Source of the DNA: a virus
Direction: 5' to 3' (one strand)
Virus genome (UHGV): UHGV-1430452
DNA length: 64,000 bases
Within the stretch, counting starts at the first letter, position 1. Each line of letters opens with the position of its first letter. Positions 1,263-25,813 of this stretch are shown one piece after another. The translations under genes were made by a program, and so were the position numbers. The notes beneath the pieces are model-generated. The model saw nothing but the letters and a program-made list of their open reading frames with translations, was not told where the DNA came from and made no database searches.

Positions 1263-1322
1263 TTCAATTCCTCCTTTAATAAAAAAATGTTTTATTTCAT
1301 TAAAGTAGATGTTTTTTACGCG

Positions 1323-1580
1323 TTATTTCCTAATAAACTGTCCACATGATCCGCAATAATGATCATACTCAGCTGTAGGTATTGGTGCCTCGCATGTCGG
1401 ACATAATTTAAGAGATCCCTGGTCTGGATCGTCCGCCACTCGATATTTTAATTCACTAACTACTTCTGTAAAAAGATCGGCGTTAGGTCCACCGTTTTTA
1501 ATTTCCAAATCTCTAAGTTCTCTCATTCTATTTACAATATTGATTACTCTCTGATTTCTTTCTTCTAAATATTTTTTCAT
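1323..1580 (-). CDS. hypothetical protein with C-terminal zinc-ribbon (CxxC...CxxC)
   Basis: 85-aa ORF; C-terminus LCPTCE...YCGSCG. Confidence 0.45.
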   Translation of the reverse strand: MKKYLEERNQRVINIVNRMRELRDLEIKNGGPNADLFTEVVSELKYRVADDPDQGSLKLCPTCEAPIPTAEYDHYCGSCGQFIRK

Positions 1581-1581
1581 C

Positions 1582-2196
1582 TTATTTCTCCTTTCTTACT
1601 ACCCTAGCTCTCTCAAAAATATAATTGTTAATATTATCAGGACCGTTACCATAGCGTTGTACATATGGCACTCCTAAAACATTTCTACCATTTACAAATC
1701 TATGTTCTCCGATCCCGATAACTTCGTGTTTCTCATATCGTCCACTACTATTCATAATGAACACAATATCACCGACTTTAATCTCATTTACTGGAGTTTC
1801 TACAGCATCTAGGAATTCTCCGAGCTGTTCTTTTAATGGTTGACGAATATCAATCTCTTTAAGGAATTCGTCTAGATCATAACCTTCATGATAGTCTTCA
1901 CCACCAACATGTCTAACAATATCCCAGTCTTTTACGACATAAATACCATTATCCAACCAGTAATCCTCGACTTCACTTTCCCTTACATCAGTCTCAATTC
2001 CGATAGATAAGTTTCCACCAAAGAAATTACCTACGACCTGACAGAATCTAGCCATACCGTAGGAATCATCAAATCCTCTATGCTCTTTTAACTCACAGTA
2101 TTTAAGAAATGCAGTAACGCTATCAATACCTCCATTCCAATGCAAATATACTCCGATGTCTTTTCCTTCTGGTTTTACGATAGCTCTGTTACCCAT
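1582..2196 (-). CDS. hypothetical protein
   Basis: 204-aa ORF immediately upstream of, and probably coupled to, 1323..1580. Confidence 0.5.
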   Translation of the reverse strand: MGNRAIVKPEGKDIGVYLHWNGGIDSVTAFLKYCELKEHRGFDDSYGMARFCQVVGNFFGGNLSIGIETDVRESEVEDYWLDNGIYVVKDWDIVRHVGGEDYHEGYDLDEFLKEIDIRQPLKEQLGEFLDAVETPVNEIKVGDIVFIMNSSGRYEKHEVIGIGEHRFVNGRNVLGVPYVQRYGNGPDNINNYIFERARVVRKEK

Positions 2197-2219
2197 GTTA
2201 AGTCAGCTCCTAAGTTGAT

Positions 2220-2420
2220 TTATTTTAAAATGCCTTTATGTCTACATAACTCTAGCAACATTTCATTCTCTTCTTGTAAAGCCTCTAATTTATCGGCAGC
2301 ATTCTTACAGTAAATATGAATCGCATTAGACATTTTATCCGTTTCATCCAACGGAACTTTCGTTAATGGAAACATATTTACAAGCCAACGTAGAGACTTA
2401 GCTTCTGGTACTTCTTTCAT
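2220..2420 (-). CDS. hypothetical protein
   Basis: 66-aa ORF. Confidence 0.35.
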   Translation of the reverse strand: MKEVPEAKSLRWLVNMFPLTKVPLDETDKMSNAIHIYCKNAADKLEALQEENEMLLELCRHKGILK

Positions 2421-2451
2421 TCGTTTCTCCTTTCAAATATCAGCTCCTAAT

Positions 2452-2601
2452 TTAGTCTATCTTTACTATTTGTTCTATGCCGCCATCCCTAAGCTCACGA
2501 TTTACAACTTGTGCTCCGTAAATTTCAAAATAGTCTGATTCTACAATTTGCAAATCCTTTGGCAATTGTTCTAAAATATCGATAAGTTCACCTACTGTCA
2601 T
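2452..2601 (-). CDS. small hypothetical protein (49 aa), found by eye
   Basis: ATG preceded by GAAAGGAGAAACTAA; fills the gap between neighbouring genes; below the ORF-track size cutoff. Confidence 0.3.
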   Translation of the reverse strand: MTVGELIDILEQLPKDLQIVESDYFEIYGAQVVNRELRDGGIEQIVKID

Positions 2602-2626
2602 TTAGTTTCTCCTTTCAAATATCAAC

Positions 2627-2977
2627 TCACAAATCCTCATAGCTATGAGCAATCAATGCGTAAATACTTTTATCTAAAACAAACGCATTATCGCCATCAT
2701 TTCCGAAACCGATTACTCTATGATTCTTCAAGTTGTCACCGTGGAATTTCGCATCAATACAACTTTCATCTTTGCTAGTCTGCATAACACAAAAAGTGAC
2801 ATAATTATCGTTAGGAAGTTTTATAGATATAGTGTTCATCCAGTCTTTAGATTTATGGTCCAAATGAGACATATCAACTGTATAGTGATTACATTTGTTG
2901 AATGTCGGATAACCTAATTTCTCAGCTTCCTCGATTGAACATTTAGTAAATATCAATTCTTTTTGTGTTGCTTCCAT
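2627..2977 (-). CDS. hypothetical protein
   Basis: 116-aa ORF. Confidence 0.45.
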   Translation of the reverse strand: MEATQKELIFTKCSIEEAEKLGYPTFNKCNHYTVDMSHLDHKSKDWMNTISIKLPNDNYVTFCVMQTSKDESCIDAKFHGDNLKNHRVIGFGNDGDNAFVLDKSIYALIAHSYEDL

Positions 2978-3066
2978 TGTTGGTCAGCTCCCTAAGTTAG
3001 TTTTAATGCTTAACATTAAATATAAAAAGAAGAAGCCCCAGCTAAATATAGCCAGAGCTTCATACT

Positions 3067-3321
3067 TTACTTGCAATGAAATCCCATTACTACTTTTTCT
3101 TCAGATTCATTTTCCTTATTTTCTTCCGGTTCAACTTTGATTTTCGCTTTCTCGCATACCTCCTGTGCGATTTCGTTACCTTCTTTAGCAGCAAACTTCA
3201 ATGTACCAAGGCCGATACCTGTAATAACTGCCTGAGCCATTTCCGCTGCAAACTTACCCATAGCAACTCCAAATGACACTGCAAATGCTGCTTTGCGTAA
3301 ATCTTTAAATTGTCCATTCAT
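3067..3321 (-). CDS. hypothetical protein
   Basis: 84-aa ORF; conserved motif at 3358..3382 upstream. Confidence 0.4.
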   Translation of the reverse strand: MNGQFKDLRKAAFAVSFGVAMGKFAAEMAQAVITGIGLGTLKFAAKEGNEIAQEVCEKAKIKVEPEENKENESEEKVVMGFHCK

Positions 3322-3357
3322 TTTAAGTTCCTCCTTTAAGAAATATAGACTTCATTC

Positions 3358-3382
3358 CATTAAAGGCGATGTTTATGTCGCG
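3358..3382 (-). promoter_or_regulatory. Instance of conserved promoter-like motif
   Basis: CATTAAAGGCGATGTTTATGTCGCG upstream of 3067..3321. Confidence 0.45.
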
Positions 3383-3384
3383 TA

Positions 3385-3714
3385 TTATCTATTTTTCTTA
3401 CCGTAAGCGGAATAATCCCTACGCTTTGGAGTTACTGGTGCTTCTGGTTTTTCCGGACTTTCTTCCACCACCTCAACAGCATCGACGGGAGTGTCTGGCT
3501 TCTCTTCTTTTTTGACTTCTCCGTATGCGCTGCTAGTCTCGACTTTCTTACCGTTAACTCTTTTCTTCCATTCACAATCAAACTCTTCATCGATGCCAGA
3601 CTTGTAAGAAAACGTGCAAATATACTCCTGTCCTGTTTTTGAATCTGTGTAAATATCACCGATAGCTCCTTCTGTTCTTCTTGTTGGTGCTCCTACTCCT
3701 GTTAATTTAGCCAT
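3385..3714 (-). CDS. hypothetical protein
   Basis: 109-aa ORF, charged and Pro-rich C-terminal half. Confidence 0.4.
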   Translation of the reverse strand: MAKLTGVGAPTRRTEGAIGDIYTDSKTGQEYICTFSYKSGIDEEFDCEWKKRVNGKKVETSSAYGEVKKEEKPDTPVDAVEVVEESPEKPEAPVTPKRRDYSAYGKKNR

Positions 3715-3733
3715 TGATATTATCCTCCATAAT

Positions 3734-3952
3734 TTAAACTTTTTCTATTTTGCATTCATCACTGAGTAACCAGTTAAGACTTACTCCAGATAAACAAGGG
3801 TGTGGTGCAAAACCAGGTAATTTGATTAATGAACCCTGCTTACTATCGAAATAATAAATATCGTTACTCTTCTGATTTGTAAATCTGAAGTATTCAGACG
3901 GCCCAATACCGAGCCGCCTTCTGATTAAAAATATAATTAATCTATTTAACAT
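3734..3952 (-). CDS. hypothetical protein
   Basis: 72-aa ORF. Confidence 0.3.
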   Translation of the reverse strand: MLNRLIIFLIRRRLGIGPSEYFRFTNQKSNDIYYFDSKQGSLIKLPGFAPHPCLSGVSLNWLLSDECKIEKV

Positions 3953-3967
3953 ATCGCTCCTTTCTGA

Positions 3968-4465
3968 TTACTCTTCCGGATGTTCCTCCGCTGCAAATCT
4001 GGATGAGAATCTGTCAATATCCTGAGTTACACACATTGACTGCAAATATGCTGCACGGAATGGTTTACCGTTAATCTCAGAATCATACGGTCTGATATCA
4101 AGATCGACACTTGCAATATCAATTTCGTCGAGCATGGATACTGTTTCTTCATCAAGTTTGACTCTATTTCTACCAGACTGAAGATATACAATAGGGCCTC
4201 TGTCGTTAAATTTGACTTTAACTGGAAGATAGATAAATGGTTCATCTCCATCTTCTCTTGGCGGTTTGATCTTTACATTCCATCCTGCTCCAAACTTATT
4301 TACATCATTCTGCAAAGCTTCTGCCATTTCTTCGTTAGGGATAATCAAAGCGAAGTTACGGTCTCCTTCTTTGTTGAATTTACCGCCTTCTCCTCTGAAG
4401 TTTCTGAAAATGATTCTTGCGTCATCGATCTGTAATACTCCTCTTGGTGCGAATGTTAATTCCAT
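3968..4465 (-). CDS. hypothetical protein; possibly an ssDNA-binding or recombination-associated protein (acidic C-terminal tail)
   Basis: 165-aa ORF next to the replication gene; acidic tail ...FAAEEHPEE; functional guess is weak. Confidence 0.4.
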   Translation of the reverse strand: MELTFAPRGVLQIDDARIIFRNFRGEGGKFNKEGDRNFALIIPNEEMAEALQNDVNKFGAGWNVKIKPPREDGDEPFIYLPVKVKFNDRGPIVYLQSGRNRVKLDEETVSMLDEIDIASVDLDIRPYDSEINGKPFRAAYLQSMCVTQDIDRFSSRFAAEEHPEE

Positions 4466-4655
4466 AATGTTAATCTCCTTTTAAATAAATATAGTTTTTA
4501 ATGGATTTGATTTAATTGCTGCGTTGGACTTTTGTTTAACTTCCTCGCATATGATTGCTCCTTTCTTGTGATAGAAAAACAAAAAGAGTCTCAACCATAA
4601 TCGGTCAAGACTCCTTATCTCTTCATTAAAGCCGTTGTATTTTTCGCGATTCGTA

Positions 4656-4946
4656 CTATCGTAAAGATTTTGGGACAAGGCTTTTGATAATCTTTTTCTG
4701 ATGCTCGTCCAGATCGTGATATAGAGTGAAACCCGTTGCCCCATTATACTCATCGCCAAACTGTTTGTAGTACATAGATTGTTTCCATAACTCCGGATAC
4801 TCTTTTTTGTACTTTGCGAGTTCTTTTGCTTTCTTGTCATACTGTTTATCCGAAATTATATTATTATCTAACTCGTAATAAATATATGAATGAAGTATGA
4901 TATATCTTTGCAAGTAATCTATGTATTCGAGGGTTGTTAGTTCCAT
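4656..4946 (-). CDS. hypothetical protein
   Basis: 96-aa ORF overlapping the 3' end of the replication gene by a few nt. Confidence 0.4.
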   Translation of the reverse strand: MELTTLEYIDYLQRYIILHSYIYYELDNNIISDKQYDKKAKELAKYKKEYPELWKQSMYYKQFGDEYNGATGFTLYHDLDEHQKKIIKSLVPKSLR

Positions 4947-7900
4947 GGCAGCTCTACATCTTCATCATCGAATGGAATTTCCTCAGGAGATCCTTCCGGT
5001 ATGTTCATGAAGTCTGGTAAATGAGAATCTCTAAAAGGAGGTTCATGCCGATCTGAAGCATCCCAAGGCGGAGTACCAACATATGGATCGTCTGATATGA
5101 ACCACTCAGCGTCTCCGTATTGACCAATAGTTTCAAGAGCATCATCCACAAGCTTTCGATAATATGAACGATCAATATTTTCTTCATTTCCCGGAGACAT
5201 CATTAACTCGGATTCAAGCCAACGGAAACCAGTTGTTCCTGTAGCTGCATAATATTTACCGTTCTGTTCTCGCATCAATAGTCCTCCACCCTTTCCAGGC
5301 TTAACCGGACAAAATTGCCCAACTTTACCTACGAAATGATAGTCATGACCTTCAGCTATTAAATCGTTTAATCTTCGACACTCACTTTCGAAAGTTGTGT
5401 CCGATAACTTACCTTTCCTGTACTTATCTTCAAGTTTGGATAGTTCTTTTTCATACTCGGATACATCTGGAAGTTTTTCGTTCATATCCAAATATAAAGC
5501 AGATTTTACTGAGAATGCTTCGCACATATCTTTCAACTCAATTGGTTCTTTACTGAACAGTGTTTTAAATACATACGGAACTGCAAACTGTTTTCCAGTA
5601 GCTGTCCATTCTCCGGCATTCTTTCCATCTTTAAACCTAGCCACGTACACAGCATCATTTACTAAACAGAATTTTTCAAAGTTAGCCTCTGTTTCAAATG
5701 TATATCCGTATTCTTTACCGAATTTGGTTACGAAATCAATAATATCAGGAGTAGCATCGGGTATCTTTATGGAATCTGTCTTGATATGACAAACAGTAAA
5801 TCCTCGTTTCTGAACTTCTCTTTTCAATAATGTCATGAAGAGAGCTCCTCTTTTGGCAACAATGTTATCCTTATTTCTAGGATCTCTAAATTCATTTACG
5901 AAGCCAGCTGATGTCAAACCATAAATGGAATTGATAACAATCTTAAGTGCCTGCGCTAAATCAGCAGCCTGTTCTTCATTTAAGTATGGTTTCAACGCTC
6001 CACCTAATAATTGTCCAGCTGTTTCAAAGTCTTTATGCTTAATTGCAACACGAGCTTTTACAATATCCTCAAACCGTTTTGTATATTCTGGTCCAAATAG
6101 ACATTCGAATATAATACTGTGAGGATGCTGAGAAGCAATGTCTCCATCCCATACATTACCGTAATGCCCAGGTTCAGAGTAAACCCGACCGCCTTCTCCA
6201 ATGGCTTCGCCTAAATATGTTGATTTACCAAACTCAAAAGTATAGCCTTTAAAGAATGGAAGAATGCTATAACCTTCTGGAAGCTTTTCGCCAGGAACGT
6301 AAGATCGATATAATGGAAGACCCTCAGAATCAAATACTCTGAAATCATAATCATCTCCGAATTTAATTCTATATTCATCATAACGATCTGAGCTAACCGG
6401 TTCCGCCAAGTATCTATAGTTGAATACATTCTGCGGTTTTTTATTATTTCCAAATATAATTCTTTTAGAAAGAGTATTTGTCGTATCATTAACTGTAACG
6501 TTTGTAATATCATGTAAGAGTTTTACAAGATCAACCTGAATCTGTCTAGCAACAAAGTCTGCTTTTCTTGCATTGAATACAGCTTCCGTCGCAATGACAT
6601 CATTATCGCAATACTCAGCAACCTTTGCCCATAATTCTTCTGGAACTGGTTGATCCCAAGGAAGACCAAGCTCTTGATGATGAATACCCAGTTCAATCTC
6701 CCATTTCTTTAAACTCTGTTTCACAGTTGACATATCATATACATCAATGTAACCAAGATTATATGCCTCACCAAACATGCCATTATCACGGCTTCCCTTT
6801 GGAGCATTAATAATTCTTTGAGATAACTTATATATTTCCTCATTTGTGTATCCCATAAGTCTAGCATAAATGATATGTCTGTCGTATTTACGTCCATTAA
6901 AATCAACAAGTTTAAACTTTAGAAGATTTTCTATTTCTGCTGGTGTAGGATTAATTAATCTAACTACTGTTTTTCCTTCTCCAGCAAACTTATAGTTTAC
7001 CAAAAATAAATTTGGGAATACCTCACAATCATAGAATACAAGATCGTCAGTATCACCCTCATTACTTGTCTCTGAAGCCTCTTCACTCTTAAACGCCATC
7101 TGATTAACTAACTTCAAACACTCATCAGCCTGGTTACTACTACTCGCCGCCAAAGCAAATACAGCATTTTTCATATCAGACACATCATATCCAATACCAC
7201 TCTCATAAGCCTCATCCAAAAGTTTCTTAATCATTTGAATACTTGGAGCTGTGTTACCCATAATTTCTTTATTCAGATGTTTCTTAAGAACGGATCTCAA
7301 ATATTTCTCATTCTTAATACCATCAAAGTTAATCACATTTTTCACCTCTTTCAACGGAAGACCTGAGCTAATTGTACGAATAACAAGATTGACACACTTA
7401 GTAAGTTTTCTTCTAAGAGATGTTTTACCGGTAAATACCTTAATCTCGATATCCTCATCAAATATACGACTTAATTCACTCACATCACCGTTATAAATAT
7501 AATGAAGATGAATACCTCCACCACTTTTGCTTAACTCAGCATATGTTGGAGGCCATTTACTAGCTGCTTCAAGATTCTTCTCGAAACATTTATTACCATT
7601 CTCGTCCTTAATATCAAAGTCAATAACTACATGATTTTCAGGGACCTTGACGTAATGAAGTTTTGATGTGTCAAGTTCTGATAGGGTAGTTGAAACTTCA
7701 TCCCATGGCTTCGTCGGAGTTTCTTTTGAAGTAGCATATTGAGCTGGACAATCAGAACATTCTTTATCAAAAATAGACTCCTGTTCTTCAAATATAAGCC
7801 AGCTCTCAGTTTTCTCATCTCCAATAGGTTTCTCTGCTTTAACCTTTTTCTTCCCACCAATAGAGTCTTCGAAAATATCAGTCTTAAAACCGTCGTAATA

Positions 7901-9163: not shown

Positions 9164-9374
9164 TCATCTTATGGCCTCCTTTCATTTTTTTAATATATGA
9201 TTCTAATGTTTCATAGCACCAGTCATAAAAATTATGGTAAGTAAAAACAAAATCCGAGCCGCTTTTTATGCGAACTCGGACACTATCTTTACCGTTGGGG
9301 AACCAGTCTTCTACATGAATTGCAATTTCCGGAAATTGTTTGCTAAATTGTTTATATACATCTTCGTGCTTCAT
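9126..9374 (-). CDS. hypothetical protein
   Basis: 82-aa ORF whose 3' end overlaps the polymerase start, suggesting translational coupling. Confidence 0.4.
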   Translation of the reverse strand: MKHEDVYKQFSKQFPEIAIHVEDWFPNGKDSVRVRIKSGSDFVFTYHNFYDWCYETLESYIKKMKGGHKMNVGLHDSINEDE

Positions 9375-9383
9375 ATCTTACCT

Positions 9384-10512: not shown

Positions 10513-10524
10513 TTGTTTCTCCTT

Positions 10525-12312: not shown

Positions 12313-12314
12313 GA

Positions 12315-12761: not shown

Positions 12762-12771
12762 AGTTTTCCTT

Positions 12772-13080: not shown

Positions 13081-13112
13081 CGTAACGACACATCCTTATT
13101 GTGTATTTTTAT

Positions 13113-13721: not shown

Positions 13722-13735
13722 TTTCTTATCACCTC

Positions 13736-13939: not shown

Positions 13940-14011
13940 TGTTACCTCCTAGAAACAAAAAGAGAAGAGTCCCATAATTGAGACCCGTCTCTTTTTCGAA
14001 TACTTTAAATG

Positions 14012-14359
14012 TTATTTCTCGGCTGCTTCCTCGTCGATTTCTTCCTCGATAACGGATTCATCTTCAGGTTCATCAACCTCTTCAACCTCGACCCATTTCA
14101 GTCTTTTCTTGGCTTTCTTCTTTTTAGGCTGCTCGTCTTTCTTTTTGGATTTGATTTTCTTGTAAGCTGCTGCTCCTAATGCAACTGCTCCAGCAATCAA
14201 TCCTACTGTCAGACCGATAGCCTTTCCAGATCCACCTTCTTCTACTGAATAGTCTTCCGGCTCCAGGTCAATAACCTCAACCTCGTTATCCATTACTTCG
14301 TCTTTGATTTCGCTCATAGCAAGATCCTCCTTTAAAATAATTTTAAGTATTTTCTTCAT
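14012..14359 (-). CDS. hypothetical membrane protein with acidic termini and basic KKKAKK stretch
   Basis: 115 aa; central hydrophobic helix GLTVGLIAGAVALGAAA. Confidence 0.4.
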   Translation of the reverse strand: MKKILKIILKEDLAMSEIKDEVMDNEVEVIDLEPEDYSVEEGGSGKAIGLTVGLIAGAVALGAAAYKKIKSKKKDEQPKKKKAKKRLKWVEVEEVDEPEDESVIEEEIDEEAAEK

Positions 14360-14386
14360 AAAGCACTGTGTATTTTTCGCGTATGA

Positions 14387-15214: not shown

Positions 15215-15303
15215 TTTTTATCTCCTTTCATGAACAGTTAAATTGTTTTTACCAAAAATCCCACTCGGGAAAATTTTGATCTTGAAAAAATAGAAATCGA
15301 AAA

Positions 15304-15375
15304 GAAACAGTGTAGGACTCGAACCCACAACCTACAGATATAAGTCTGTTGCTCTACCAATTGAGCTAACTGTTT
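15304..15375 (-). tRNA. Probable tRNA; anticodon region reads CUUAUA (possibly UAU, Ile/AUA) but the loop looks one nt short in my manual fold
   Basis: Acceptor stem AAACAGT/ACTGTTT, D-arm GCTC/GAGC, T-arm GTGGG-TTCGAGT-CCTAC all pair; anticodon stem ACAGA/TCTGT. Confidence 0.55.
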
Positions 15376-15709
15376 CTTCTCATAATAGCGCTTGTAAATT
15401 TCGCGAATATAGATCTTCAGAAACAAAAAAGAAGAACCCCGAAGGATTCTCCTAGACTTTCTTCTGAAGCTCAGAAACTGCTTTCTTCAACTCTTCAAAC
15501 TCCTTTTCTTTTTTCTGATCTGATAATGCACCTGCTATAGCCATAATACCTGTTACTACAACACCTGCATATTTTCCGACAGACTTCAGAAGCGGATTAT
15601 TGATAATACCTTTGAATTTCATTTTTCTCGTCTCCTTTCTTCATTCCATTAAAGGAAATGTTTTTGTCGCGATACCGGTTTCGCTATATCAAAATATCAT
15701 CGTTTATCG

Positions 15710-16198
15710 TCACCCGTGTATGGGTAAATCCATTTTGATTTTGTCAGGATTCATAATGAGGATACTATCGCAGTCCCAGCCATACAGATCCCAATATAAC
15801 TGATGATCAGCTGATAAATTTAACTCGATGGCATCATAGCCAAGTTCAATGCATTTCTCGAAATCTATCAGTGTACTTATTGATTTCCATACCGGGTCAG
15901 CAATTGTTGGAAGTTCCTTTAATTTTTCTACGGAATCTATAACGAATATATTGGCTTCCGGAAGAGTGAATATGAAACTATTTTCTTCAATACATTCACG
16001 AAAATTTTCTCTTTCACACCAGTCTTTCCAACCTAATTTGGCATCTATCGGACTAGCCCAAAGACCTCCTCTAGGTTTAACCCAGCATTGCTCATTTTGA
16101 ATAGGTTTAAATAAGTTTGGATTAAAAGTTGCATGTCCGTAATGAATATAAATCTTGTCTTGCATATTACTATCCTTTCGTTCAAAAACATATGTCAC
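15710..16198 (-). CDS. hypothetical protein
   Basis: 162-aa ORF. Confidence 0.45.
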   Translation of the reverse strand: MTYVFERKDSNMQDKIYIHYGHATFNPNLFKPIQNEQCWVKPRGGLWASPIDAKLGWKDWCERENFRECIEENSFIFTLPEANIFVIDSVEKLKELPTIADPVWKSISTLIDFEKCIELGYDAIELNLSADHQLYWDLYGWDCDSILIMNPDKIKMDLPIHG

Positions 16199-16223
16199 TT
16201 AGTAACAAAAAGAAAAGAGGCCC

Positions 16224-16427
16224 CTATTTCAGGACCTCAAATTTCTCTTTTTTATTTTTCTTGATTTTATTCTCAACGGATTCTTTCCATTGATTCGCTT
16301 TAGTTGCCACTGCCTGTCTGACTTCTGGAATAGCAAGTGCCGAACCGACAACCGTTACTGCCGGCACAACAATCTGTCCAATCCAAAGTCTTACTTCTCT
16401 CATAGCATCAATATTTTTGCGTTTCAT
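16224..16427 (-). CDS. small hypothetical protein with hydrophobic segment
   Basis: 67 aa. Confidence 0.35.
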   Translation of the reverse strand: MKRKNIDAMREVRLWIGQIVVPAVTVVGSALAIPEVRQAVATKANQWKESVENKIKKNKKEKFEVLK

Positions 16428-16478
16428 AGTTTTATCCTCCTTTAAAAATATAATCTTTTCATTAAAGGCGTTGTTTAT

Positions 16479-16694
16479 TTAGCGAGTGTAATGGATATGC
16501 TCATTGTTTAATTCGTCGAGATGTTTAATAAAATCTAAATATCTTTTATTTCGTCTATTCTCCACAAAGTTTATAACTAACCAAGCAATCCCTACGATAG
16601 GCAAGCCAACGAATACTAATAGAAATAGTAAGCATGTAATCATAGAAACAAGCGTATTCATAAATCTTCTCCTTTCAATACTCTTCGTAATCAA
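16479..16694 (-). CDS. small membrane protein
   Basis: 71 aa; hydrophobic CLLFLLVFVGLPIVGIAWLV. Confidence 0.4.
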   Translation of the reverse strand: MITKSIERRRFMNTLVSMITCLLFLLVFVGLPIVGIAWLVINFVENRRNKRYLDFIKHLDELNNEHIHYTR

Positions 16695-17451
16695 TGAACG
16701 GCTCTGTGAAATCTACAATATAACATTCAATACCGTCGTCCATTTCTACTTTTGTATGGTGGAAATATAGCCAACCATCCCAGTACATTTCATACATCTG
16801 AGCTGCGGACCAACCCATAAATTCACCGTAATCCTGTCGATCAATCTCTAGTAAATCGTAATAATCGTTTAAAGATGCACCACCGGATTGAGATAGCATT
16901 TTATTAATCTCATACTCTGCTCTCAATTGAGTTTCTTTCGTCACACGGTAATAACGTTTGGAATATTCATCGTAGAATAGTGTTTTGCCATCCTCGTATT
17001 CGTCGTCATATTCTTCTTTGTCTTCTTCCTCGTAATGGTCTTTTGCTACAGCAGCACGAATGAGTTTGTCTCCGTCTTCACCATATAACTTTTTAACTTT
17101 GTTTTTGTACTCTTTGTGAGTTTGGTCTAGTAAGGCATAAGCAGATGCGATGGCTGCTTGGGAATGTTTGTTTAATAGATTCGCGCCAAATATGCAAGCT
17201 AGGGTTCCTGTTCCAATCAATAAGGAAGGAATATATGTTGGTCCTGCTACTCGAATAGTCTCCCATTTTGTTAATTCATCTCCTTTCTCTTCTTCAGCTA
17301 GTTCAATAAGTTCCATTGCTTTCGGAGTAGCTTTAACCGCCATTACAGCTGTACCTACCACTCCGGCAGCTCCTAATACTGTTAATATAGTAGAGCTGTT
17401 TTTCTTTACGAATCTTTTCGAAACTGTTAGTAAGTCATTCATTTCCAGCAC
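16675..17451 (-). CDS. Membrane protein, paralog family member 3
   Basis: 258 aa; paralog of 11374..12312 and 14387..15214. Confidence 0.55.
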   Translation of the reverse strand: MLEMNDLLTVSKRFVKKNSSTILTVLGAAGVVGTAVMAVKATPKAMELIELAEEEKGDELTKWETIRVAGPTYIPSLLIGTGTLACIFGANLLNKHSQAAIASAYALLDQTHKEYKNKVKKLYGEDGDKLIRAAVAKDHYEEEDKEEYDDEYEDGKTLFYDEYSKRYYRVTKETQLRAEYEINKMLSQSGGASLNDYYDLLEIDRQDYGEFMGWSAAQMYEMYWDGWLYFHHTKVEMDDGIECYIVDFTEPFIDYEEY

Positions 17452-17563
17452 GCTCCTTGGCGATAAATTTGGTAAAAATAAAAAGAGAAAGAAAAGAGTC
17501 AGCTTGTTGTGTAAACCAAGTCTAACTCAATTCTTTTTGTCATTATCCGAAATAACAATATCC

Positions 17564-17590
17564 CATAACAGGTGATGTAATTTTCGCGAA
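17564..17590 (-). promoter_or_regulatory. Instance of conserved promoter-like motif
   Basis: CATAACAGGTGATGTAATTTTCGCGAA. Confidence 0.5.
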
Positions 17591-17593
17591 TCC

Positions 17594-17824
17594 CTACTGC
17601 TCAAAAAATAAAACTACATCTACCGGATCTTTGAAGTGCTGCTCCTCCACTACTTCTTTAAATTCTTCAAATGATTCCGGTTCGTATTCTTGTAAATATA
17701 AAATCTGTTCAAGCAATCTTCCGTAAAATCCTTGAGAATTAGATAGCATTTTTACCACACCAATGACTTGTTCAACATCATAACCGTCTGCTTTCTTTTC
17801 CATAGCGTTTGCCATTTTGAACAC
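17594..17824 (-). CDS. hypothetical protein
   Basis: 76 aa; preceded by a long GC-richer leader. Confidence 0.4.
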   Translation of the reverse strand: MFKMANAMEKKADGYDVEQVIGVVKMLSNSQGFYGRLLEQILYLQEYEPESFEEFKEVVEEQHFKDPVDVVLFFEQ

Positions 17825-17993
17825 TCCTTTAATTGGTTTTTGATAAAAATAAAAAGAGAATACAATGACTTCAGGGTCGGCCCAACGAAAACCGTTGCCC
17901 GGTGGGTAGCATGTTTTATTACGTTATTACGTGCCGCTACGCCTTCGTGTCTCACCACTGGATTTCCACCAGTATCTATCCATTGCTTTCTCT

Positions 17994-18020
17994 CATAATA
18001 GGTGATGTAATTTTCGCGAA
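17994..18020 (-). promoter_or_regulatory. Instance of conserved promoter-like motif (minus-strand TTCGCGAAAATTACATCACCTATTATG)
   Basis: -10-like TATTAT and palindromic TTCGCGAA core; one of about 20 copies. Confidence 0.5.
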
Positions 18021-18047
18021 TAGAAAAAGAAAATGCCTAGTTTTTAA

Positions 18048-18311
18048 CTAGACAAATTCTTTAATAATTATTGTTCCACCAACTACATCGATTTTTATTT
18101 TATTCATCGCTTTCAACATACTAGCCACTTTTTGCACTGGTAACTTACTTGTGAAACCATAGAACACCAAGTCGCCCATGGTATATACATGCCCTACTGA
18201 ATACTTAACTTCAATATCGGCTGTATATTTGCCAAGGCAATCCATTGCTCCTAAATTTTTCACAACTTCGTTTTTATTCGCGCATAAAGTAATTTCATAT
18301 TTAGTAAACAT
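18048..18311 (-). CDS. hypothetical protein
   Basis: 87 aa; conserved motif 18347..18373 and RBS AAGGAGG upstream. Confidence 0.45.
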   Translation of the reverse strand: MFTKYEITLCANKNEVVKNLGAMDCLGKYTADIEVKYSVGHVYTMGDLVFYGFTSKLPVQKVASMLKAMNKIKIDVVGGTIIIKEFV

Positions 18312-18346
18312 ATAAATTCCTCCTTATTCGATTTCATTGTTTTTCT

Positions 18347-18373
18347 CATAATAGGTGATGTAATTTTCGCGAA
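18347..18373 (-). promoter_or_regulatory. Instance of conserved promoter-like motif
   Basis: Identical core CATAATAGGTGATGTAATTTTCGCGAA on the plus strand; 36 nt upstream of the ATG of 18048..18311. Confidence 0.5.
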
Positions 18374-18395
18374 AACAAAAGAGAAAGGGCCCATG

Positions 18396-18536
18396 TTACT
18401 GAGCCACTTTCGCTTTCTTATGATTTTTAACTGCTTTCTTAGAAACCTCTACTGCTTTATTCACTGCATCACTTGCCAAACTACCGACTACCAATCCGCC
18501 AGCAATCTCAATAATGTGTCTAACTAAAACATTCAT
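18396..18536 (-). CDS. small membrane peptide (46 aa), found by eye
   Basis: ATG with RBS GGAGGAATCT; hydrophobic IIEIAGGLVVGSLA; motif 18573..18599 upstream. Confidence 0.3.
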   Translation of the reverse strand: MNVLVRHIIEIAGGLVVGSLASDAVNKAVEVSKKAVKNHKKAKVAQ

Positions 18537-18629
18537 TTTAGATTCCTCCTGTTAAGCAATTTATTATCTTTCCATAATAGGACTTGTAATTTTCGCGAAT
18601 TAAAAGAAAAGACACCGTGTTTCAGGTGC

Positions 18630-18857
18630 CTAATCCTCTGAATCAACCATTTGTTCAATTTTCAGTAATACTTTCTGATCAATTTCTCCATCCGCATTGA
18701 TATGAAATCGTATTTTACCATCCTTCATCTCAGCTTCTATCTCACTAATACGGATGTCTGGTTTGACTCCAATATTTTTGTATATAGCTCTAGATATAAG
18801 TTTGGCTACCATACCTCTCATAAATCTAGTAGATAATTTAATTTTCATTTCGTCCAT
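18630..18857 (-). CDS. hypothetical protein
   Basis: 75 aa. Confidence 0.4.
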   Translation of the reverse strand: MDEMKIKLSTRFMRGMVAKLISRAIYKNIGVKPDIRISEIEAEMKDGKIRFHINADGEIDQKVLLKIEQMVDSED

Positions 18858-18943
18858 AATTACCTCCTCCTTCTAGGTTGTTTCCTATAATAGGGGAAGT
18901 TTAAGTCGCGAAAACAAAAGAAAGAGCAGTGGGTGACACCGCT

Positions 18944-19051
18944 CTAACTGTTTCTCAAAAATCGAATGAGAATCCATACAAGCCATAATCCTCCGGTTGC
19001 AAATACTAATACAAAGTCGATAAGCAATCCGAATAATCCACGCTTTTTCAT
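18944..19051 (-). CDS. small membrane peptide (35 aa), found by eye
   Basis: RBS GAAAGGAGAAG before ATG; hydrophobic LFGLLIDFVLVFATGGLWLVWILI; motif 19079..19103 upstream. Confidence 0.3.
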   Translation of the reverse strand: MKKRGLFGLLIDFVLVFATGGLWLVWILIRFLRNS

Positions 19052-19335
19052 GATTATCTTCTCCTTTCATTTTCTTTTCACAATAGGAGAAGTTTTTATC
19101 GCGTGCATTATCAGTTCCTTCAAATACAAAATAAAAGAGACCAATCGGCCTCTCTTACATGTTTCGTTTAGAAAGTTCTTCTGCTACCTTCTTTGCAATC
19201 TTTTCATCCAATAACTTATCTGTACTTTGTTTCCCTGCGAATGTTAATCCCGCACTAACAATAGCTGTTATAAGCTTTGCAATTCTAATTACTTTTGGTG
19301 ACATAAATATACCTCCTTTCTATAATAGAAGAGGT

Positions 19336-19695
19336 TTAAATCGCGCGTCTATCGAAGCAAGTTTCCCATCGTTCTCGCTTAACTGGCTTCATTTTCATAG
19401 TCCACATCATTTGTCGGACCGTTACGGTGGGATATAAACCGTTCTCAGGTTCTCCCGATCTATCCTCGAAGAACTCCAGGAATCTTTCATGTAAATATAA
19501 AGTGTCTGTCAGCCACGGATCAATCTCGCCCCACCAGGTATTTTTCGTCGCTGGATCATATCGCTGCTGAATAACAGCTAGTCCTTTTCGTCCCATTTTG
19601 AATAAAGTACATTTACTGTAAACTGGATGATCACATTCATAAGTTTCTCCGTACATCGATACATAAACTTTTGGCTTTTCGTAGTGATAACGCAT
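19336..19695 (-). CDS. hypothetical protein
   Basis: 119 aa. Confidence 0.4.
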   Translation of the reverse strand: MRYHYEKPKVYVSMYGETYECDHPVYSKCTLFKMGRKGLAVIQQRYDPATKNTWWGEIDPWLTDTLYLHERFLEFFEDRSGEPENGLYPTVTVRQMMWTMKMKPVKRERWETCFDRRAI

Positions 19696-19791
19696 ATTAC
19701 TATTATCCTTTCTTTAACTTTAGTTATATAACTTTTGTTTAAACTCTCGCGTTAGGAAATATAAAAGAAGAAAAAAAAAGAAAAGACTATG

Positions 19792-19868
19792 GGAATAGCG
19801 CGGGATTCGAACCCACGACGTTGAGTTTCCTCTTATTCTTCCATTAGAACTAACCGTCTTAACTATTC
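19792..19868 (-). ncRNA. tRNA-like element: acceptor stem and T-arm (GGTTCGAATCC) recognisable, anticodon arm not
   Basis: GAATAGT...GTGGG-TTCGAAT-CCCGC-GCTATTC-C; I could not fold a canonical D or anticodon arm by eye. Confidence 0.35.
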
Positions 19869-19988
19869 CAGAGACTTCTTCCGATATATTGCTATACGGG
19901 AATTGTTCTCTTCTTTTCTATAATAGGAAATGTTTATTTAGCGAAAGAAAATAGCCCAGGCGTTTAACCCGAGCTAATTCTCTTAAAC

Positions 19989-20357
19989 TTATTCGTTACC
20001 ATTGAGTTTCTCAATAGCTTCAACCTTCCTGCTGTCAAACATCGTAGAATTTACAATACTCATCACAGCTTTGTAATATGTTTTCGGCTGATCCTTCTTG
20101 AGCAACTCTATCGCCTGAACTTTACGACTATCAAACATGCTGCTGTTCATTATCGAAGCTACCGCACTGTCATAATCTGCTGTGCTAAATATATCCGCTA
20201 ATAAATCAACTTCATATGTGTCCTGTTTTCGTTTCTTTTCACGCAATACAACTGCCACAATTGGAATCGCAATACCAATCCCATTTGCTACATATTCTGT
20301 GATTTTCCATAAACTCTCTTTTGTTTTCTCGCTAGTTAAAACTTCTTTGATTTTCAT
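19989..20357 (-). CDS. hypothetical protein with internal duplication (STMFDSRKVEAIEKL twice) and N-terminal hydrophobic helix
   Basis: 122 aa. Confidence 0.4.
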   Translation of the reverse strand: MKIKEVLTSEKTKESLWKITEYVANGIGIAIPIVAVVLREKKRKQDTYEVDLLADIFSTADYDSAVASIMNSSMFDSRKVQAIELLKKDQPKTYYKAVMSIVNSTMFDSRKVEAIEKLNGNE

Positions 20358-20457
20358 ATCAATAACCTCCTATAAGTTTATTCTCATAACAGGCGTTGTA
20401 ATAATAGCGAAAAAGAAGAGCCTAAGTCATTTCGACTCAAGCCCTTCCATTTTGAAA

Positions 20458-20871
20458 TTACTTTTTTGGGAGTAACTTCTGAATGAATCCTCGACCCATT
20501 ATTGTTGTGATGGTTCCAGTCTCTTCGAATTTGATAGACTTGATTGTGCCCCAGATAGTAACCGCTGTCGGTATAACAATACCCGCTCCTGTTAAGCAAT
20601 TCTTAACAACTCGATCTTTTCGTTCATCTTTAAGCTGCTCTGCTCTTAATTCAGCATCAACATTTTGCTGATCCTTTTTAAGTTCTTGTTCAGCCTTAAT
20701 TTTCTCAAGTTCGATTGCTCGATCACATAACTTTGTCAGGCCGTCTACCGTATTTTTGTACTTATCTGTACCTACTTCAAGTTTTCCTAACTCTTCGAAT
20801 TCGTCCTGAATCTCATCTTTTAATAATGTTTCAATACTCATTTTGAACTCCTCCTTATATTCGTATTTCAT
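20458..20871 (-). CDS. hypothetical protein, coiled-coil with C-terminal hydrophobic helix
   Basis: 137 aa. Confidence 0.4.
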   Translation of the reverse strand: MKYEYKEEFKMSIETLLKDEIQDEFEELGKLEVGTDKYKNTVDGLTKLCDRAIELEKIKAEQELKKDQQNVDAELRAEQLKDERKDRVVKNCLTGAGIVIPTAVTIWGTIKSIKFEETGTITTIMGRGFIQKLLPKK

Positions 20872-20882
20872 AATAGGGAATG

Positions 20883-21092
20883 TTATTTTTGCGACAGATC
20901 TACTCTAAGCATTACGTGTTTATCTTTTCGTAGCTTATATGCCTTACCACTATCTATTTCTAAAAATAAATACGGTGCTGAGTCTGGATCTGAGCTGTCT
21001 ACTTTCAGTGTGCCGATTGGCTTTTTTACTAAGAGTGTCGTTGCCACAACTGCACCTATCAGCATACCTACTAATAAAAATAAAAGTTCCAC
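20883..21092 (-). CDS. small membrane protein; start reassigned to GTG preceded by RBS AGGAGG
   Basis: Track ORF 20883..21158 begins inside a conserved intergenic motif; the downstream GTG has a strong RBS and gives a 69-aa hydrophobic protein. Confidence 0.35.
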   Translation of the reverse strand: MELLFLLVGMLIGAVVATTLLVKKPIGTLKVDSSDPDSAPYLFLEIDSGKAYKLRKDKHVMLRVDLSQK

Positions 21093-21252
21093 TACGCTAC
21101 TTCCTCCTTTCTTCAATAGAATTGTTTTATCGAAAACTCCCTCCCGGGAAATTTTCACTTTAGAATTTTAATATTGTTTCCTGTCACCTATGTACGGAAT
21201 ATCTATTCTAGATTAGAGTTTGTTTTAATCTAGGTTAAAGAAAAAAGAGAGC

Positions 21253-21489
21253 CTAAGCCCTCTTATCTGTCATAAAACTTGGTAACTGAAGTTCTGGTTT
21301 ATAAGTCATTAACTCTGCTTCATATAGCCTCATGATAATAGCTATCTCATCTTCATGAATACTTTTTATCAACTTAAAGACTTTATCATAATCAACATCT
21401 GATTTATTCTTCATTTGACAAATATAATCCACGAGTCTGGTATACTTATCATCCGCAGTTCCTATCATTGCCGCAAATTTAACTTCCAT
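21253..21489 (-). CDS. hypothetical protein
   Basis: 78 aa. Confidence 0.4.
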   Translation of the reverse strand: MEVKFAAMIGTADDKYTRLVDYICQMKNKSDVDYDKVFKLIKSIHEDEIAIIMRLYEAELMTYKPELQLPSFMTDKRA

Positions 21490-21570
21490 AATTTATCCTC
21501 CTTAAATTTAAAGTTTTATGTTTCTATAAAGTAGTATGTATTTTTGGCGAAAAAGAAAAGAAGAGACCGA

Positions 21571-21771
21571 TTAGGCCTCCTCTTTAAATAACTCAGGGTA
21601 TTTCTCCATCAGTTCTTTTCTGTCTCGTTCAATGTCTTTTTCTATATGCTCGATTTCTGCTTCCAATTTACCTGTGCTTTTACCTAAACGGTAACCCAGA
21701 TAAGATCCTACAGCATAAACCAATCCGGCATATAAACCAAAACCTAAACCAGCTTTTAAATTAGCTTTCAT
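21571..21771 (-). CDS. small membrane protein
   Basis: 66 aa; hydrophobic LGFGLYAGLVYAVGSYLG. Confidence 0.4.
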   Translation of the reverse strand: MKANLKAGLGFGLYAGLVYAVGSYLGYRLGKSTGKLEAEIEHIEKDIERDRKELMEKYPELFKEEA

Positions 21772-21813
21772 GATAGATCACTCCTATAATTTATTCTCAT
21801 AATAGGCGTTGTT

Positions 21814-22062
21814 TTAGTCGCGATCATCAAACGGTACTTCTATGTTTTCAATCTCGTCAGAAATAATCTCCCCGTCACCGATAAGTAGTTCTCTTTTGTT
21901 TATTTGATTAACGCTAGTTCGATATATACCCTCAGCTACTGCTAGTCCGATAAATGTACTTACTCCCCAAAGAATTCCTTTGATTAATTTATTAGTATCC
22001 ATTTTGAATTTTCCTCTCATGATATATTCTCTATTGGAAATCAAAAGGAAGAGTATCTGCAT
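21814..22062 (-). CDS. small membrane protein
   Basis: 82 aa. Confidence 0.35.
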   Translation of the reverse strand: MQILFLLISNREYIMRGKFKMDTNKLIKGILWGVSTFIGLAVAEGIYRTSVNQINKRELLIGDGEIISDEIENIEVPFDDRD

Positions 22063-22082
22063 AGATACCCGCCTTTTTGTTT

Positions 22083-22298
22083 TTAATTATTGCTTGTGGT
22101 CCAACCCATGTTGTTCTGTGTGAATGAGTTGTTAATGCCGTTGATAGTTCTTACTCTATCCTCGTACAATGAATTGTCGCTAATGATGCTAACTCCGAAT
22201 TTCCATTTGAAGTCTGGAATTTCGTTAGCTGCTTTCATAGCTTCATCCCATTTCTCAAGGAAGACTTCTATCGCATATCCTCTCTCTACACTATCCAT
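22083..22298 (-). CDS. hypothetical protein
   Basis: 71 aa. Confidence 0.35.
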   Translation of the reverse strand: MDSVERGYAIEVFLEKWDEAMKAANEIPDFKWKFGVSIISDNSLYEDRVRTINGINNSFTQNNMGWTTSNN

Positions 22299-22325
22299 GT
22301 CGTTACCCTCCTTTATAATAATTTT

Positions 22326-22353
22326 CTATAAAGGAGCGTGTAATTTTCGCGAA
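22326..22353 (-). promoter_or_regulatory. Instance of conserved promoter-like motif
   Basis: CTATAAAGGAGCGTGTAATTTTCGCGAA upstream of 22083..22298. Confidence 0.45.
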
Positions 22354-25770: not shown

Positions 25771-25813
25771 GGGAAACTATTCTAAACGTTGATATATCAA
25801 GGAGGAGATATAC

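What the first reader, a model, noticed from the sequence alone, without database searches (positions are those of the whole stretch)
1298..22353. About 20 copies of a conserved promoter-like motif of about 27 bp, all in the same orientation, in the early gene region
Minus-strand consensus is roughly TTCGCGAAAA-T-TACA-nnnn-CCTATTAT(G/A). Copies begin near plus coordinates 1298, 3358, 4624, 14357, 15647, 16460, 17564, 17994, 18347, 18573, 18885, 19079, 19320, 19918, 20386, 20869, 21524, 21798 and 22326, with a partial copy near 15391. Each lies just after the stop of the upstream gene, usually 25-40 nt before the next RBS and start. It has a -10-like TATTAT but no canonical -35 at 17-bp spacing; instead there is a palindromic TTCGCGAA core about 14 bp upstream. 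That points to a phage-specific promoter class, or a promoter with an overlapping operator for a dimeric regulator. The motif is absent from the structural module.
Basis: seen in the sequence. Interest (0 to 1): 0.6.

Follow-up and report, generated by a model that had tools for sequence, protein, structure and literature searches.

The report
Phage-specific promoter repeated 20 times
The repeated 27-bp motif is real and is most likely a special promoter used by a very large family of gut Clostridia phages to switch on their early and replication genes, but it is not built like a normal bacterial promoter and the protein that reads it is still unidentified.

Summary
Exactly 20 copies lie on the minus strand between 1295 and 22353, scoring 16-47 bits. 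Nothing else in the 64 kb scores above 4 bits, and shuffled sequence reaches at most 12.

The motif is a hallmark of Oengus-like temperate phages of gut Clostridia. In 80 related prophage loci I found 598 same-strand copies against 2 opposite.

The family consensus is T-CGC-N7-ACA-N7-TTATG-RAA, with rigid 10-bp spacing between blocks.
- Only CGC survives of the TTCGCGAA palindrome.
- The "-10" has A at its second position in only 44% of sites.

Three lines of evidence support a promoter:
- Copies sit directly after intrinsic terminators.
- They lie a median 31 nt before start codons.
- They precede a tRNA-like gene by 1-5 nt, and in 28% of sites the ribosome-binding site starts 0-3 nt after TTATG.

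The last two points place the transcription start at TTATG, not 7 nt further downstream.

Best model: these are middle promoters that depend on a phage factor made from the sigma-A-type PR operon. The best candidate is an uncharacterised 139-aa protein encoded just before the first copy in the window and in its two sequenced relatives, and present in all 80 loci (which were retrieved through it). This link is inferred, not shown. I found no published description.

The parts
22324..22353 (-). motif copy 1 (TTCGCGAAAATTACACGCTCCTTTATAGAA), first after the 139-aa gene
   Evidence: 32-35 bits
21795..21824 (-). motif copy 2
21522..21551 (-). motif copy 3, directly after terminator 21585-21557
20866..20895 (-). 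motif copy 4
20382..20411 (-). motif copy 5, directly after terminator 20448-20414
19916..19945 (-). motif copy 6, directly after terminator 19976-19952
19318..19347 (-). motif copy 7 (weakest, 16.7-28.7 bits); Shine-Dalgarno starts 5 nt after it
19076..19105 (-). motif copy 8, after terminator 19158-19131
18883..18912 (-). motif copy 9, directly after terminator 18945-18923
18570..18599 (-). motif copy 10, directly after terminator 18631-18610
18344..18373 (-). motif copy 11, directly after terminator 18405-18388
17991..18020 (-). motif copy 12, directly after terminator 18054-18034
17561..17590 (-). motif copy 13
16457..16486 (-). motif copy 14
15644..15673 (-). motif copy 15
15378..15407 (-). 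motif copy 16, after terminator 15453-15430 and 4-5 nt before the tRNA-like gene
14354..14383 (-). motif copy 17, head of the 9.7-kb replication operon (genes 14317 down to 4937, no further copy inside)
4621..4650 (-). motif copy 18, followed after 8 nt by hairpin plus T-run 4616-4583
3355..3384 (-). motif copy 19
1295..1324 (-). motif copy 20 (the array continues beyond the window)
23218..23247 (-). sigma-A-type early promoter (TTGACA, 16-18 bp, GATATT/TATTCT), the only near-consensus one on the coding strand of the early region
22963..23172 (-). Cro-like HTH protein, 69 aa, first gene of the PR operon
22402..22821 (-). 139-aa protein (phrog_11237), last gene before the first motif copy; candidate specificity factor
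23398..23994 (+). cI-like repressor with two HTH_3 domains, divergent from PR
15303..15376 (-). tRNA-like gene with a 6-nt anticodon loop, transcribed as its own unit from motif copy 16

Best explanation
Each copy is a promoter of a phage-specific class. It is a rigid three-block element, CGC-N7-ACA-N7-TTATG, whose blocks are 10 bp apart and so lie on one face of the helix. Its 3' end coincides with the transcription start, at the G/A of TTATG/A or within about 2 nt of it.

Host RNA polymerase with the housekeeping sigma alone does not read it. Reading needs a conserved phage-encoded factor made from the single sigma-A-type PR operon.

The best candidate is the 139-aa protein at 22821-22402. 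It would retarget host RNA polymerase as a sigma-like or sigma-replacing subunit.

Once the factor is made, more than 20 short, terminator-insulated units fire. They include the 9.7-kb replication operon and a tRNA-like RNA. In relatives they also include a YonO-like RNA polymerase gene, which presumably then transcribes the motif-free late genes.

In a lysogen, repression of PR alone keeps all copies silent.

Shown: the motif, its conservation, its rigid spacing and its placement.
Inferred: promoter function, the start site, dependence on a phage factor, and the identity of that factor.
For: Reality and specificity:
- 20 of 20 copies lie on one strand, far above the null.
- 598 same-strand against 2 opposite-strand copies occur in 80 related Clostridia loci. 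Faecalibacterium phage FP_oengus has 15 copies and MT835485 about 24, although their DNA is otherwise diverged.
- A reverse search by the motif pattern alone in IMG/VR returns loci of which about 100 of 120 carry this family's early proteins.
- Core positions carry 1.8-2.0 bits and flanks under 0.3 bits.
- The 7/7 spacing gives 559 hits against 27 or fewer for any other spacing.

Promoter placement:
- 9 of the 20 window copies directly follow an intrinsic terminator.
- Family-wide, 175 of 572 copies do so, against 7 of 572 control positions.
- 518 of 572 copies have a Shine-Dalgarno sequence and start codon within 120 nt, at a median of 31 nt.
- Sigma-70-like sites in the early region are no more frequent than in shuffles. 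PR is the only near-consensus one on the coding strand.

Start site:
- The tRNA-like gene begins 1-5 nt after G32 in about 35 phages, each with a terminator upstream.
- The Shine-Dalgarno core begins 0-3 nt after G32 in 121 of 430 sites.
- That position is G in 99% of family sites, and G or A in the window.

Factor:
- The immunity genes are not co-conserved with the motif: cI-like 2 of 80, Cro-like 1 of 80.
- The 139-aa protein is in 80 of 80 loci, but these loci were retrieved through it.
- It is the only family-conserved protein encoded between PR and the first copy in the window, FP_oengus, MT835485 and L014.
- The other core early proteins lie downstream of motif copies. DUF6353 and the 127-aa protein look like membrane proteins.
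- Weak, sub-threshold similarities of the 139-aa family are enriched for ECF sigma and ArpU models and sigma or Q folds.
Against: - There is no transcript data, so the start site and promoter function are inferred from geometry.
- At 139 aa it is smaller than any sigma factor I know of.
- In some relatives a motif copy also lies upstream of its gene. This requires read-through or positive feedback.
- Elements at about -24, -14 and -4 to +1 do not fit any sigma-70-family holoenzyme geometry. If host polymerase is used, the mechanism has no exact precedent.
- The 32 kb of this phage beyond the window could not be inspected for a polymerase gene.
Confidence: 0.6

Rival explanations
1. Promoter for a phage-encoded RNA polymerase rather than for retargeted host polymerase. 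A contiguous conserved block of about 25 bp ending at a G start is how T7-type and phiKZ non-virion polymerase promoters look.
For: - The layout ends at the inferred +1 G.
- phiKZ late promoters are TATG with G as +1, and phiKZ middle promoters carry AAanTTACc (PMC4666361). The motif here reads AAAATTACA...TTATG.
- FP_oengus and at least 11 of 120 motif-bearing viral loci encode a YonO/RdRP-like polymerase.
Against: - No polymerase-like gene is present in the 64-kb window or in the 9.5 kb beyond it.
- None is found in the 70.6-kb MT835485 contig, which has about 24 copies. That contig may be incomplete.
- Where the YonO-like gene exists, it is the last gene of the motif array, about 1 kb after the final copy. 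The late genes that YonO transcribes in SPbeta (PMC5467207) carry no motif.
- The first copies sit right behind PR, before any such enzyme could be made.
Confidence: 0.15
2. Ordinary sigma-A promoter with -10 TATTAT and an activator or operator site around -30 in place of the -35. This is the first reader's reading, and it is the architecture of T4 MotA-type middle promoters.
For: - In the window, 11 of 20 copies read TATTAT.
- The CGC block lies 18 bp upstream, about where a MotA box sits.
Against: - Family-wide, the -11 position is A in only 44% of sites and T in 44%. FP_oengus copies read CTTTAT.
- A start 7 nt downstream would truncate the tRNA-like RNA in about 35 phages and remove the Shine-Dalgarno sequence in 121 of 430 sites.
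- The most conserved bases (TTATG, then RAA) extend past the hexamer.
Confidence: 0.1
3. RNA-level signal. A long PR transcript is cut at each copy by a sequence-specific endonuclease, which gives mRNAs and the tRNA-like RNA 5' ends at TTATG. The upstream hairpins act as 3' stabilisers.
For: - The motif has the same orientation as the genes.
- It sits at the 5' edge of every unit.
Against: - Three blocks at exactly 10-bp spacing point to recognition of one face of duplex DNA.
- The motif has no conserved secondary structure.
- The upstream hairpins carry canonical T-runs of intrinsic terminators.
- I know of no endonuclease that reads about 25 nt of unstructured RNA.
Confidence: 0.05
4. Repressor or Cro binding sites that block or gate transcription at each gene boundary, like the stoperators of mycobacteriophage L5. 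A variant is loading sites for a Q-like antiterminator that reads through the many terminators.
For: - The sites are asymmetric, in one orientation, intergenic and numerous per genome, as for stoperators.
Against: - The immunity proteins vary among phages that share an invariant motif.
- Without the motif there would be no promoter after the terminators.
- The Q similarity is not reproduced by Foldseek or by profile comparison.
- Q systems use one loading site, not twenty.
Confidence: 0.05

Closest known systems
T4 middle promoters (MotA box plus AsiA/MotA sigma appropriation) and SPO1 gp28 or T4 gp55 phage sigma systems
   Same: An early phage product redirects host RNA polymerase to tens of phage promoters that lack a normal -35. 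One conserved element is repeated before many short early or middle units.
   Different: Those promoters keep a -10-type element ending at -7. Here the conserved block runs to the start site. No MotA, AsiA or sigma homolog was detected.
T7-type single-subunit and phiKZ non-virion RNA polymerase promoters
   Same: A contiguous conserved element ends at a G start. TTATG resembles the phiKZ late TATG with G at +1, and AAAATTACA resembles the phiKZ middle AAanTTACc (PMC4666361).
   Different: No such polymerase gene is in the window or in MT835485. The phiKZ middle element is centred near -24, whereas here it would be near -16. The phage is a temperate siphovirus.
Sigma-54 -24/-12 promoters
   Same: Two upstream blocks lie exactly 10 bp apart at about -24 and -13, with the start about 12 nt after the second. 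TTCGCG-N4-TTACA parallels GGCACG-N4-TTGCA (my own comparison with the textbook consensus).
   Different: The defining GG and GC dinucleotides are TT and AC here. No enhancer-binding ATPase is present. The third block at the start site has no counterpart.
Mycobacteriophage L5 stoperators and phiC31 conserved early promoters with CIR operators
   Same: Many copies of one asymmetric motif, in one orientation, lie in short intergenic gaps of a temperate phage. phiC31 also has a conserved, non-canonical early promoter class (from my own knowledge of that literature).
   Different: Stoperators and CIRs are bound by the phage repressor. Here the repressor is not co-conserved with the motif.
RinA/ArpU/LtrC late activators of Gram-positive phages
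   Same: Small (about 140 aa), all-helical phage proteins that switch on phage promoters. One family member gave a sub-threshold ArpU hit.
   Different: They control one late promoter before terS. Profile comparison with 80alpha RinA is not significant, at 0.7% probability.

Membership tests
Sigma-70/sigma-A housekeeping promoter | -10 hexamer with conserved A at its 2nd and T at its 6th position | tested here: not met
   In T-w-TTAT the 2nd position is A 44% / T 44% over 494 unique sites. The alternative hexamers TATGAA and TACAnn lack the final T.
Sigma-70/sigma-A housekeeping promoter | -35 TTGACA-like hexamer 16-18 bp upstream of the -10 | tested here: not met
   There is no conservation 17 bp upstream of TATTAT; positions there carry under 0.35 bits. 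The consensus scan does not pick the copies out above shuffles.
Sigma-70/sigma-A housekeeping promoter | Transcription start 6-8 nt downstream of the -10 | tested here: not met
   This is an indirect test. The tRNA-like 5' ends lie 1-5 nt after G32, and the Shine-Dalgarno core lies 0-3 nt after G32 in 121 of 430 sites. Direct 5'-end mapping was not possible.
T4 MotA-type middle promoter | Activator box near -30 combined with a canonical sigma-70 -10, plus MotA/AsiA-like proteins | tested here: not met
   The -10 requirement fails. No MotA or AsiA family hit appears in the Pfam or PHROGs scans of the early proteins tested. Not all small ORFs were scanned.
T7-type single-subunit polymerase promoter | Conserved block of about 20 bp ending at +1 with a purine (G) start | tested here: inconclusive
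   The sequence layout fits, but +1 is inferred, not mapped.
T7-type single-subunit polymerase promoter | Cognate single-subunit RNA polymerase gene in the genome | tested here: not met
   None is among the window ORFs of 180 aa or more that were scanned, nor in the 9.5 kb beyond the window. About 23 kb of the phage was not seen.
phiKZ-type non-virion polymerase promoter | TATG with G at +1, plus split beta/beta'-like polymerase genes | tested here: not met
   TATG is present. No beta/beta'-like genes are in the window.
Sigma-54 promoter | GG at -24/-25 and GC at -12/-13 | tested here: not met
   The corresponding positions are T/t and A-C, with G at position 18 in only 15% of sites. Only the spacing matches.
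Stoperator/operator array of the phage repressor | Sites bound by the immunity repressor, which should therefore co-vary or co-occur with it | tested here: not met
   The cI-like protein has homologs in 2 of 80 loci and the Cro-like protein in 1 of 80, while the motif is present in 79 of 80 (the exception is a 1.7-kb fragment). Binding itself is not testable here.
Operator for a dimeric regulator (palindrome) | Conserved dyad symmetry | tested here: not met
   TTCGCGAA is exact in 6 of 20 window copies. Family-wide only CGC is invariant, and position 11 is A 53% / G 39%.
Q-type antiterminator (for the 139-aa protein) | Fold or sequence homology to Q21, Q-lambda or Q82 | tested here: inconclusive
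Sigma-70 family / ArpU-RinA activators (for the 139-aa protein) | Detectable sigma region 2/4 or family HMM match | tested here: not met

The most novel reading that the evidence does not exclude
The 139-aa protein family (about 7,900 sequences at 90% identity clustering, 1,810 clusters at 50%, no annotation) is a new kind of polymerase-specificity factor. It would direct host RNA polymerase to promoters whose recognition elements lie at about -24, -14 and -4 to +1. No sigma-70-family factor uses this geometry, which resembles only sigma-54 or phage single-enzyme promoters.
Probability: 0.3. Interest if true: 0.8.

Novelty: new variant of a known kind. Interest (0 to 1): 0.62.

Why it matters
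Oengus-like phages are among the most prevalent temperate phages of human gut Clostridia. The original description reports Oengus in up to 40% of viromes (PMC5883640). Here the marker protein has thousands of relatives, found in Faecalibacterium, Hungatella, Blautia, Roseburia, Clostridium leptum and many uncultured lineages.

A single 27-bp signature that marks every early transcription unit has three uses:
- It gives an annotation tool for these genomes.
- It gives a portable, presumably phage-gated promoter for genetic work in hard-to-engineer Clostridia.
- It gives a defined target for finding how a phage without its own early polymerase re-programmes host transcription.

If the start site and the small factor are confirmed, this would add a new promoter geometry to bacterial transcription.

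Tried and rejected
**Identifying the 139-aa protein**
- Pfam, PHROGs and NCBIfam on single sequences and on 114 diverse members gave no family.
- A PDB sequence profile gave nothing.
- hhalign against 80alpha RinA and against 933W Q was not significant.
- Source names are all 'hypothetical protein'.

**Looking for a hidden RNA polymerase**
- The 1408-aa ORF is a primase/helicase-DNA polymerase fusion.
- The three DUF6353 paralogs are predicted membrane proteins.
- The large ORFs at 26-64 kb are tail, lysis and head proteins.

I rejected it as the main explanation. It is absent from MT835485, sits at the end of the array, and the motif is absent from late genes.

**Other checks**
- The conserved 119-, 127- and 202-aa proteins gave no informative PDB matches.
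- Rfam found only the tRNA in the early region.
- Literature searches for the motif, DUF6353, Oengus promoters and YonO promoters found no prior description.
- I considered testing covariation between protein residues and motif variants. I did not pursue it, because the variable motif positions vary within single phages.


Full report
**1.

Reading the minus strand at the listed coordinates shows the motif at all 20 places. A weight matrix seeded from them and iterated returns exactly 20 sites. All are on the minus strand, between 1289 and 22359, at 28.7-47.5 bits. Shuffled sequence never exceeds 12 bits.

A matrix built only from other genomes returns the same 20 sites at 16.7-43.4 bits. Nothing above 4 bits appears elsewhere on either strand, so the structural module (26362-64000) has none. 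The 'partial' copy at 15391 is a full one. The exact TTCGCGAA octamer is present in only 6 copies.

**2. Context in the window**

Genes from 23181 down to 1 run on the minus strand.
- A divergent lysogeny module lies at 23398-26313. It holds a cI-like protein with two HTH_3 domains and a large serine recombinase.
- Tail, lysis, head and packaging genes occupy 26362-64000.
- The only near-consensus sigma-70-type promoter on the coding strand of the early region is at 23247-23218 (TTGACA). It sits in front of a Cro-like gene, a 56-aa ORF and a 139-aa ORF (22821-22402).
- The first motif copy follows 50 nt later.
- Sigma-70-like matches in the early region are no more frequent than in shuffles. 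Intrinsic terminators are enriched threefold (23 against 7.6), and nine of them end within about 25 nt of a motif copy.
- The final G/A of the motif lies 16-39 nt before the next start codon in 15 of 20 copies.
- One copy heads a 9.7-kb replication operon that includes a 1408-aa primase/DNA polymerase.
- One copy precedes a tRNA-like gene.

**3. The motif marks a large phage family**

The window has almost no nucleotide match among sequenced phages. Its proteins link it to Faecalibacterium phage FP_oengus and to the fecal contig MT835485. Both carry the motif on the gene strand only: 15 copies in FP_oengus and about 24 in MT835485.

The 139-aa protein has 7,912 relatives in the 90% clustered collection and 1,810 clusters at 50% identity. 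Eighty genomic loci retrieved through it come from Lachnospiraceae, Oscillospiraceae, Christensenellaceae, Hungatella hathewayi, Clostridium leptum, Blautia, Roseburia and many MAGs. They contain 598 copies on the gene strand and 2 on the other.

Searching IMG/VR with the bare DNA pattern returns loci of which about 100 of 120 encode this family's early proteins. I found no mention of the motif in the Oengus paper or elsewhere in the searchable literature.

**4. Anatomy at family level**

Over 494 unique sites (selected with the window-derived matrix), the invariant bases are CGC, ACA and TTATG. A T lies two bases before CGC, there is an A/T tract between the first two blocks, CT precedes TTATG, and R-A-A follows it. 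Flanks carry under 0.3 bits.

The spacing is rigid. CGC-N7-RCA-N7-TWATR gives 559 hits, against at most 27 for any other pair of gaps. The blocks are therefore exactly 10 bp apart, on one face of duplex DNA.

- The palindrome reduces to CGC.
- The second position of 'TATTAT' is A in 44% and T in 44% of sites. FP_oengus reads CTTTAT.

**5. Where transcription must start**

Two independent features pin the 5' end.
- A tRNA-like gene begins 1-5 nt (mode 3) after the G of TTATG. This holds in the window, in FP_oengus and in about 35 other loci. Each instance has a terminator upstream and a T-run downstream.
- In 121 of 430 sites the Shine-Dalgarno core begins 0-3 nt after that G, as in TTATG|AGGAGG and TTATG|AAAGGAGG.

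A start 6-8 nt downstream of a -10 at TATTAT would remove part of the tRNA-like acceptor stem and the ribosome-binding sites. The start is therefore inferred at the TTATG. That position is G in 99% of family sites, and G or A in the window. Relative to it, the blocks lie at about -24 to -22, -14 to -12 and -4 to +1.

**6. Who reads it**

The immunity proteins are not conserved with the motif. Homologs occur in 2 of 80 loci for cI-like, 1 of 80 for Cro-like and 8 of 80 for the integrase. This excludes them as the conserved reader.

The conserved early core comprises the 139-aa protein, a 127-aa and three DUF6353 proteins (all predicted membrane proteins), a 119-aa and a 202-aa protein of unknown function, and the primase/polymerase. 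Only the 139-aa protein is encoded in the PR operon ahead of the first copy, in the window, FP_oengus, MT835485 and L014. In some relatives a further copy precedes it, inside the same operon.

Its AlphaFold2 model (pLDDT 79) is a six-helix protein rich in conserved aromatic and basic residues. Nothing significant matches it:
- BFVD gives weak hits to proteins named sigma-70 region 4, ECF sigma, DUF1492 and transcriptional activator.
- Foldseek against the PDB gives nothing.
- HMM libraries give only scattered sub-threshold ECF sigma and ArpU hits.
- Profile comparisons with RinA and Q are null.

The assignment therefore rests on position and co-conservation, not on homology.

**7. A phage polymerase?**

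FP_oengus gp55 is a YonO/RdRP-like protein with a C-terminal sigma-4-like HTH. Close homologs occur in L023 and in 11 of 120 motif-bearing viral loci.

In every case the gene lies about 1 kb after the last motif copy, and the region after it lacks the motif apart from one copy right after the gene in L023. MT835485 has the motif but no such gene. In SPbeta, YonO transcribes the late operon (PMC5467207).

The simplest reading is a cascade: PR, then the motif promoters, which include the polymerase gene where present, then the late genes. The window is bases 2-64001 of a 96.5-kb contig. I could see only 9.5 kb beyond it. That stretch holds two more copies and no polymerase.

**8. Comparison with known systems**

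Functionally this is closest to phage middle-promoter regulons: T4 MotA/AsiA, SPO1 gp28, and the phiC31 early promoters. It fails every defining feature of a sigma-70-type promoter.

Its layout resembles promoters of phage-encoded polymerases. In phiKZ, TATG carries G at +1 and the middle motif is AAanTTACc (PMC4666361). Its block spacing resembles sigma-54 -24/-12 promoters. The cognate genes or dinucleotides of those systems are absent.

I file it as a new variant of a known kind: a phage-specific promoter class with an unidentified reader.

**9. Confidence**

| Claim | Confidence |
|---|---|
| The motif is a real, selected, family-wide element | about 0.99 |
| It is a promoter | about 0.8 |
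| Transcription starts at TTATG | about 0.65 |
| It depends on a phage factor from the PR operon | about 0.55 |
| That factor is the 139-aa protein | about 0.4 |

Noticed in passing
window 15303-15376 (-); FP_oengus L002:2935-3006; about 35 related loci, e.g. L017:13163-13238 and L055:5916-5987: A conserved family of tRNA-like genes. The acceptor stems covary (GAAACAG/CTGTTTC and variants), the D and T arms are normal, and G at -1 lies opposite C73. The anticodon arms are hypervariable and abnormal: 6-nt or 8-nt loops or long inserts. ARAGORN calls them '???' with 2- or 4-nt anticodons, and sometimes Stop, SeC or Ile. Each gene is its own terminator-motif-RNA-terminator unit. They may be decoys or tRNA mimics rather than decoding tRNAs.
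   Followed up: partly
window 4583-4650 (-), and a similar hairpin at 993-1038: Motif copy 18 is followed after 8 nt by a strong hairpin and T-run. This would give an RNA of about 50 nt, or an attenuator ahead of the single-strand annealing protein gene at 4465-3968. The stem (GGAGTCTT...GAGACTC) recurs at 1038-993 and, in relatives, downstream of the tRNA-like genes.
   Followed up: no
window 17442-16675, 15214-14387, 12312-11374 (-): Three paralogous DUF6353 proteins are conserved in nearly all family members. They have two N-terminal hydrophobic helices, so they are predicted membrane proteins. Their function is unknown and no literature mentions the domain.
   Followed up: partly
L003:2592-5366 (FP_oengus gp55); L023:16934-19639; L103, L106, L120, L127, L135, L158, L174, L198: A YonO/RdRP-like single-chain RNA polymerase with a C-terminal sigma-4-like HTH. 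It is always the last gene of the motif array, about 1 kb after the final copy. Short ORFs similar to its residues 532-643 occur in L061, L070 and L073.
   Followed up: partly
window 64000 and window 1; L207, L210: The window is bases 2-64001 (reversed) of a 96.5-kb contig. All three retrieved contigs (of 14 that carry the gene) begin at the same base, 248 nt upstream of the gene at 63753. This suggests a physical genome end. The early region continues about 32 kb past window position 1, with at least two more motif copies.
   Followed up: partly
window 23398-23994 (+): The cI-like repressor carries two tandem HTH_3 (XRE) domains in 198 aa and has no obvious peptidase domain.
   Followed up: no
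L014:5156-7105: In some relatives a cluster of nine motif-driven small ORFs sits after the tail and lysis genes, just before the integrase. This is outside the main early region.
   Followed up: no
window 59267-62630 (-): Four consecutive paralogous DUF7211 genes (190, 378, 352 and 181 aa) lie just upstream of the large terminase gene.
   Followed up: no
window 28616-31048 (-); MT835485 28237-29457 and 29764-32421: The window has a collagen-repeat tail-fibre-like protein. MT835485 pairs a similar one with a reverse transcriptase, probably a diversity-generating retroelement.
   Followed up: no
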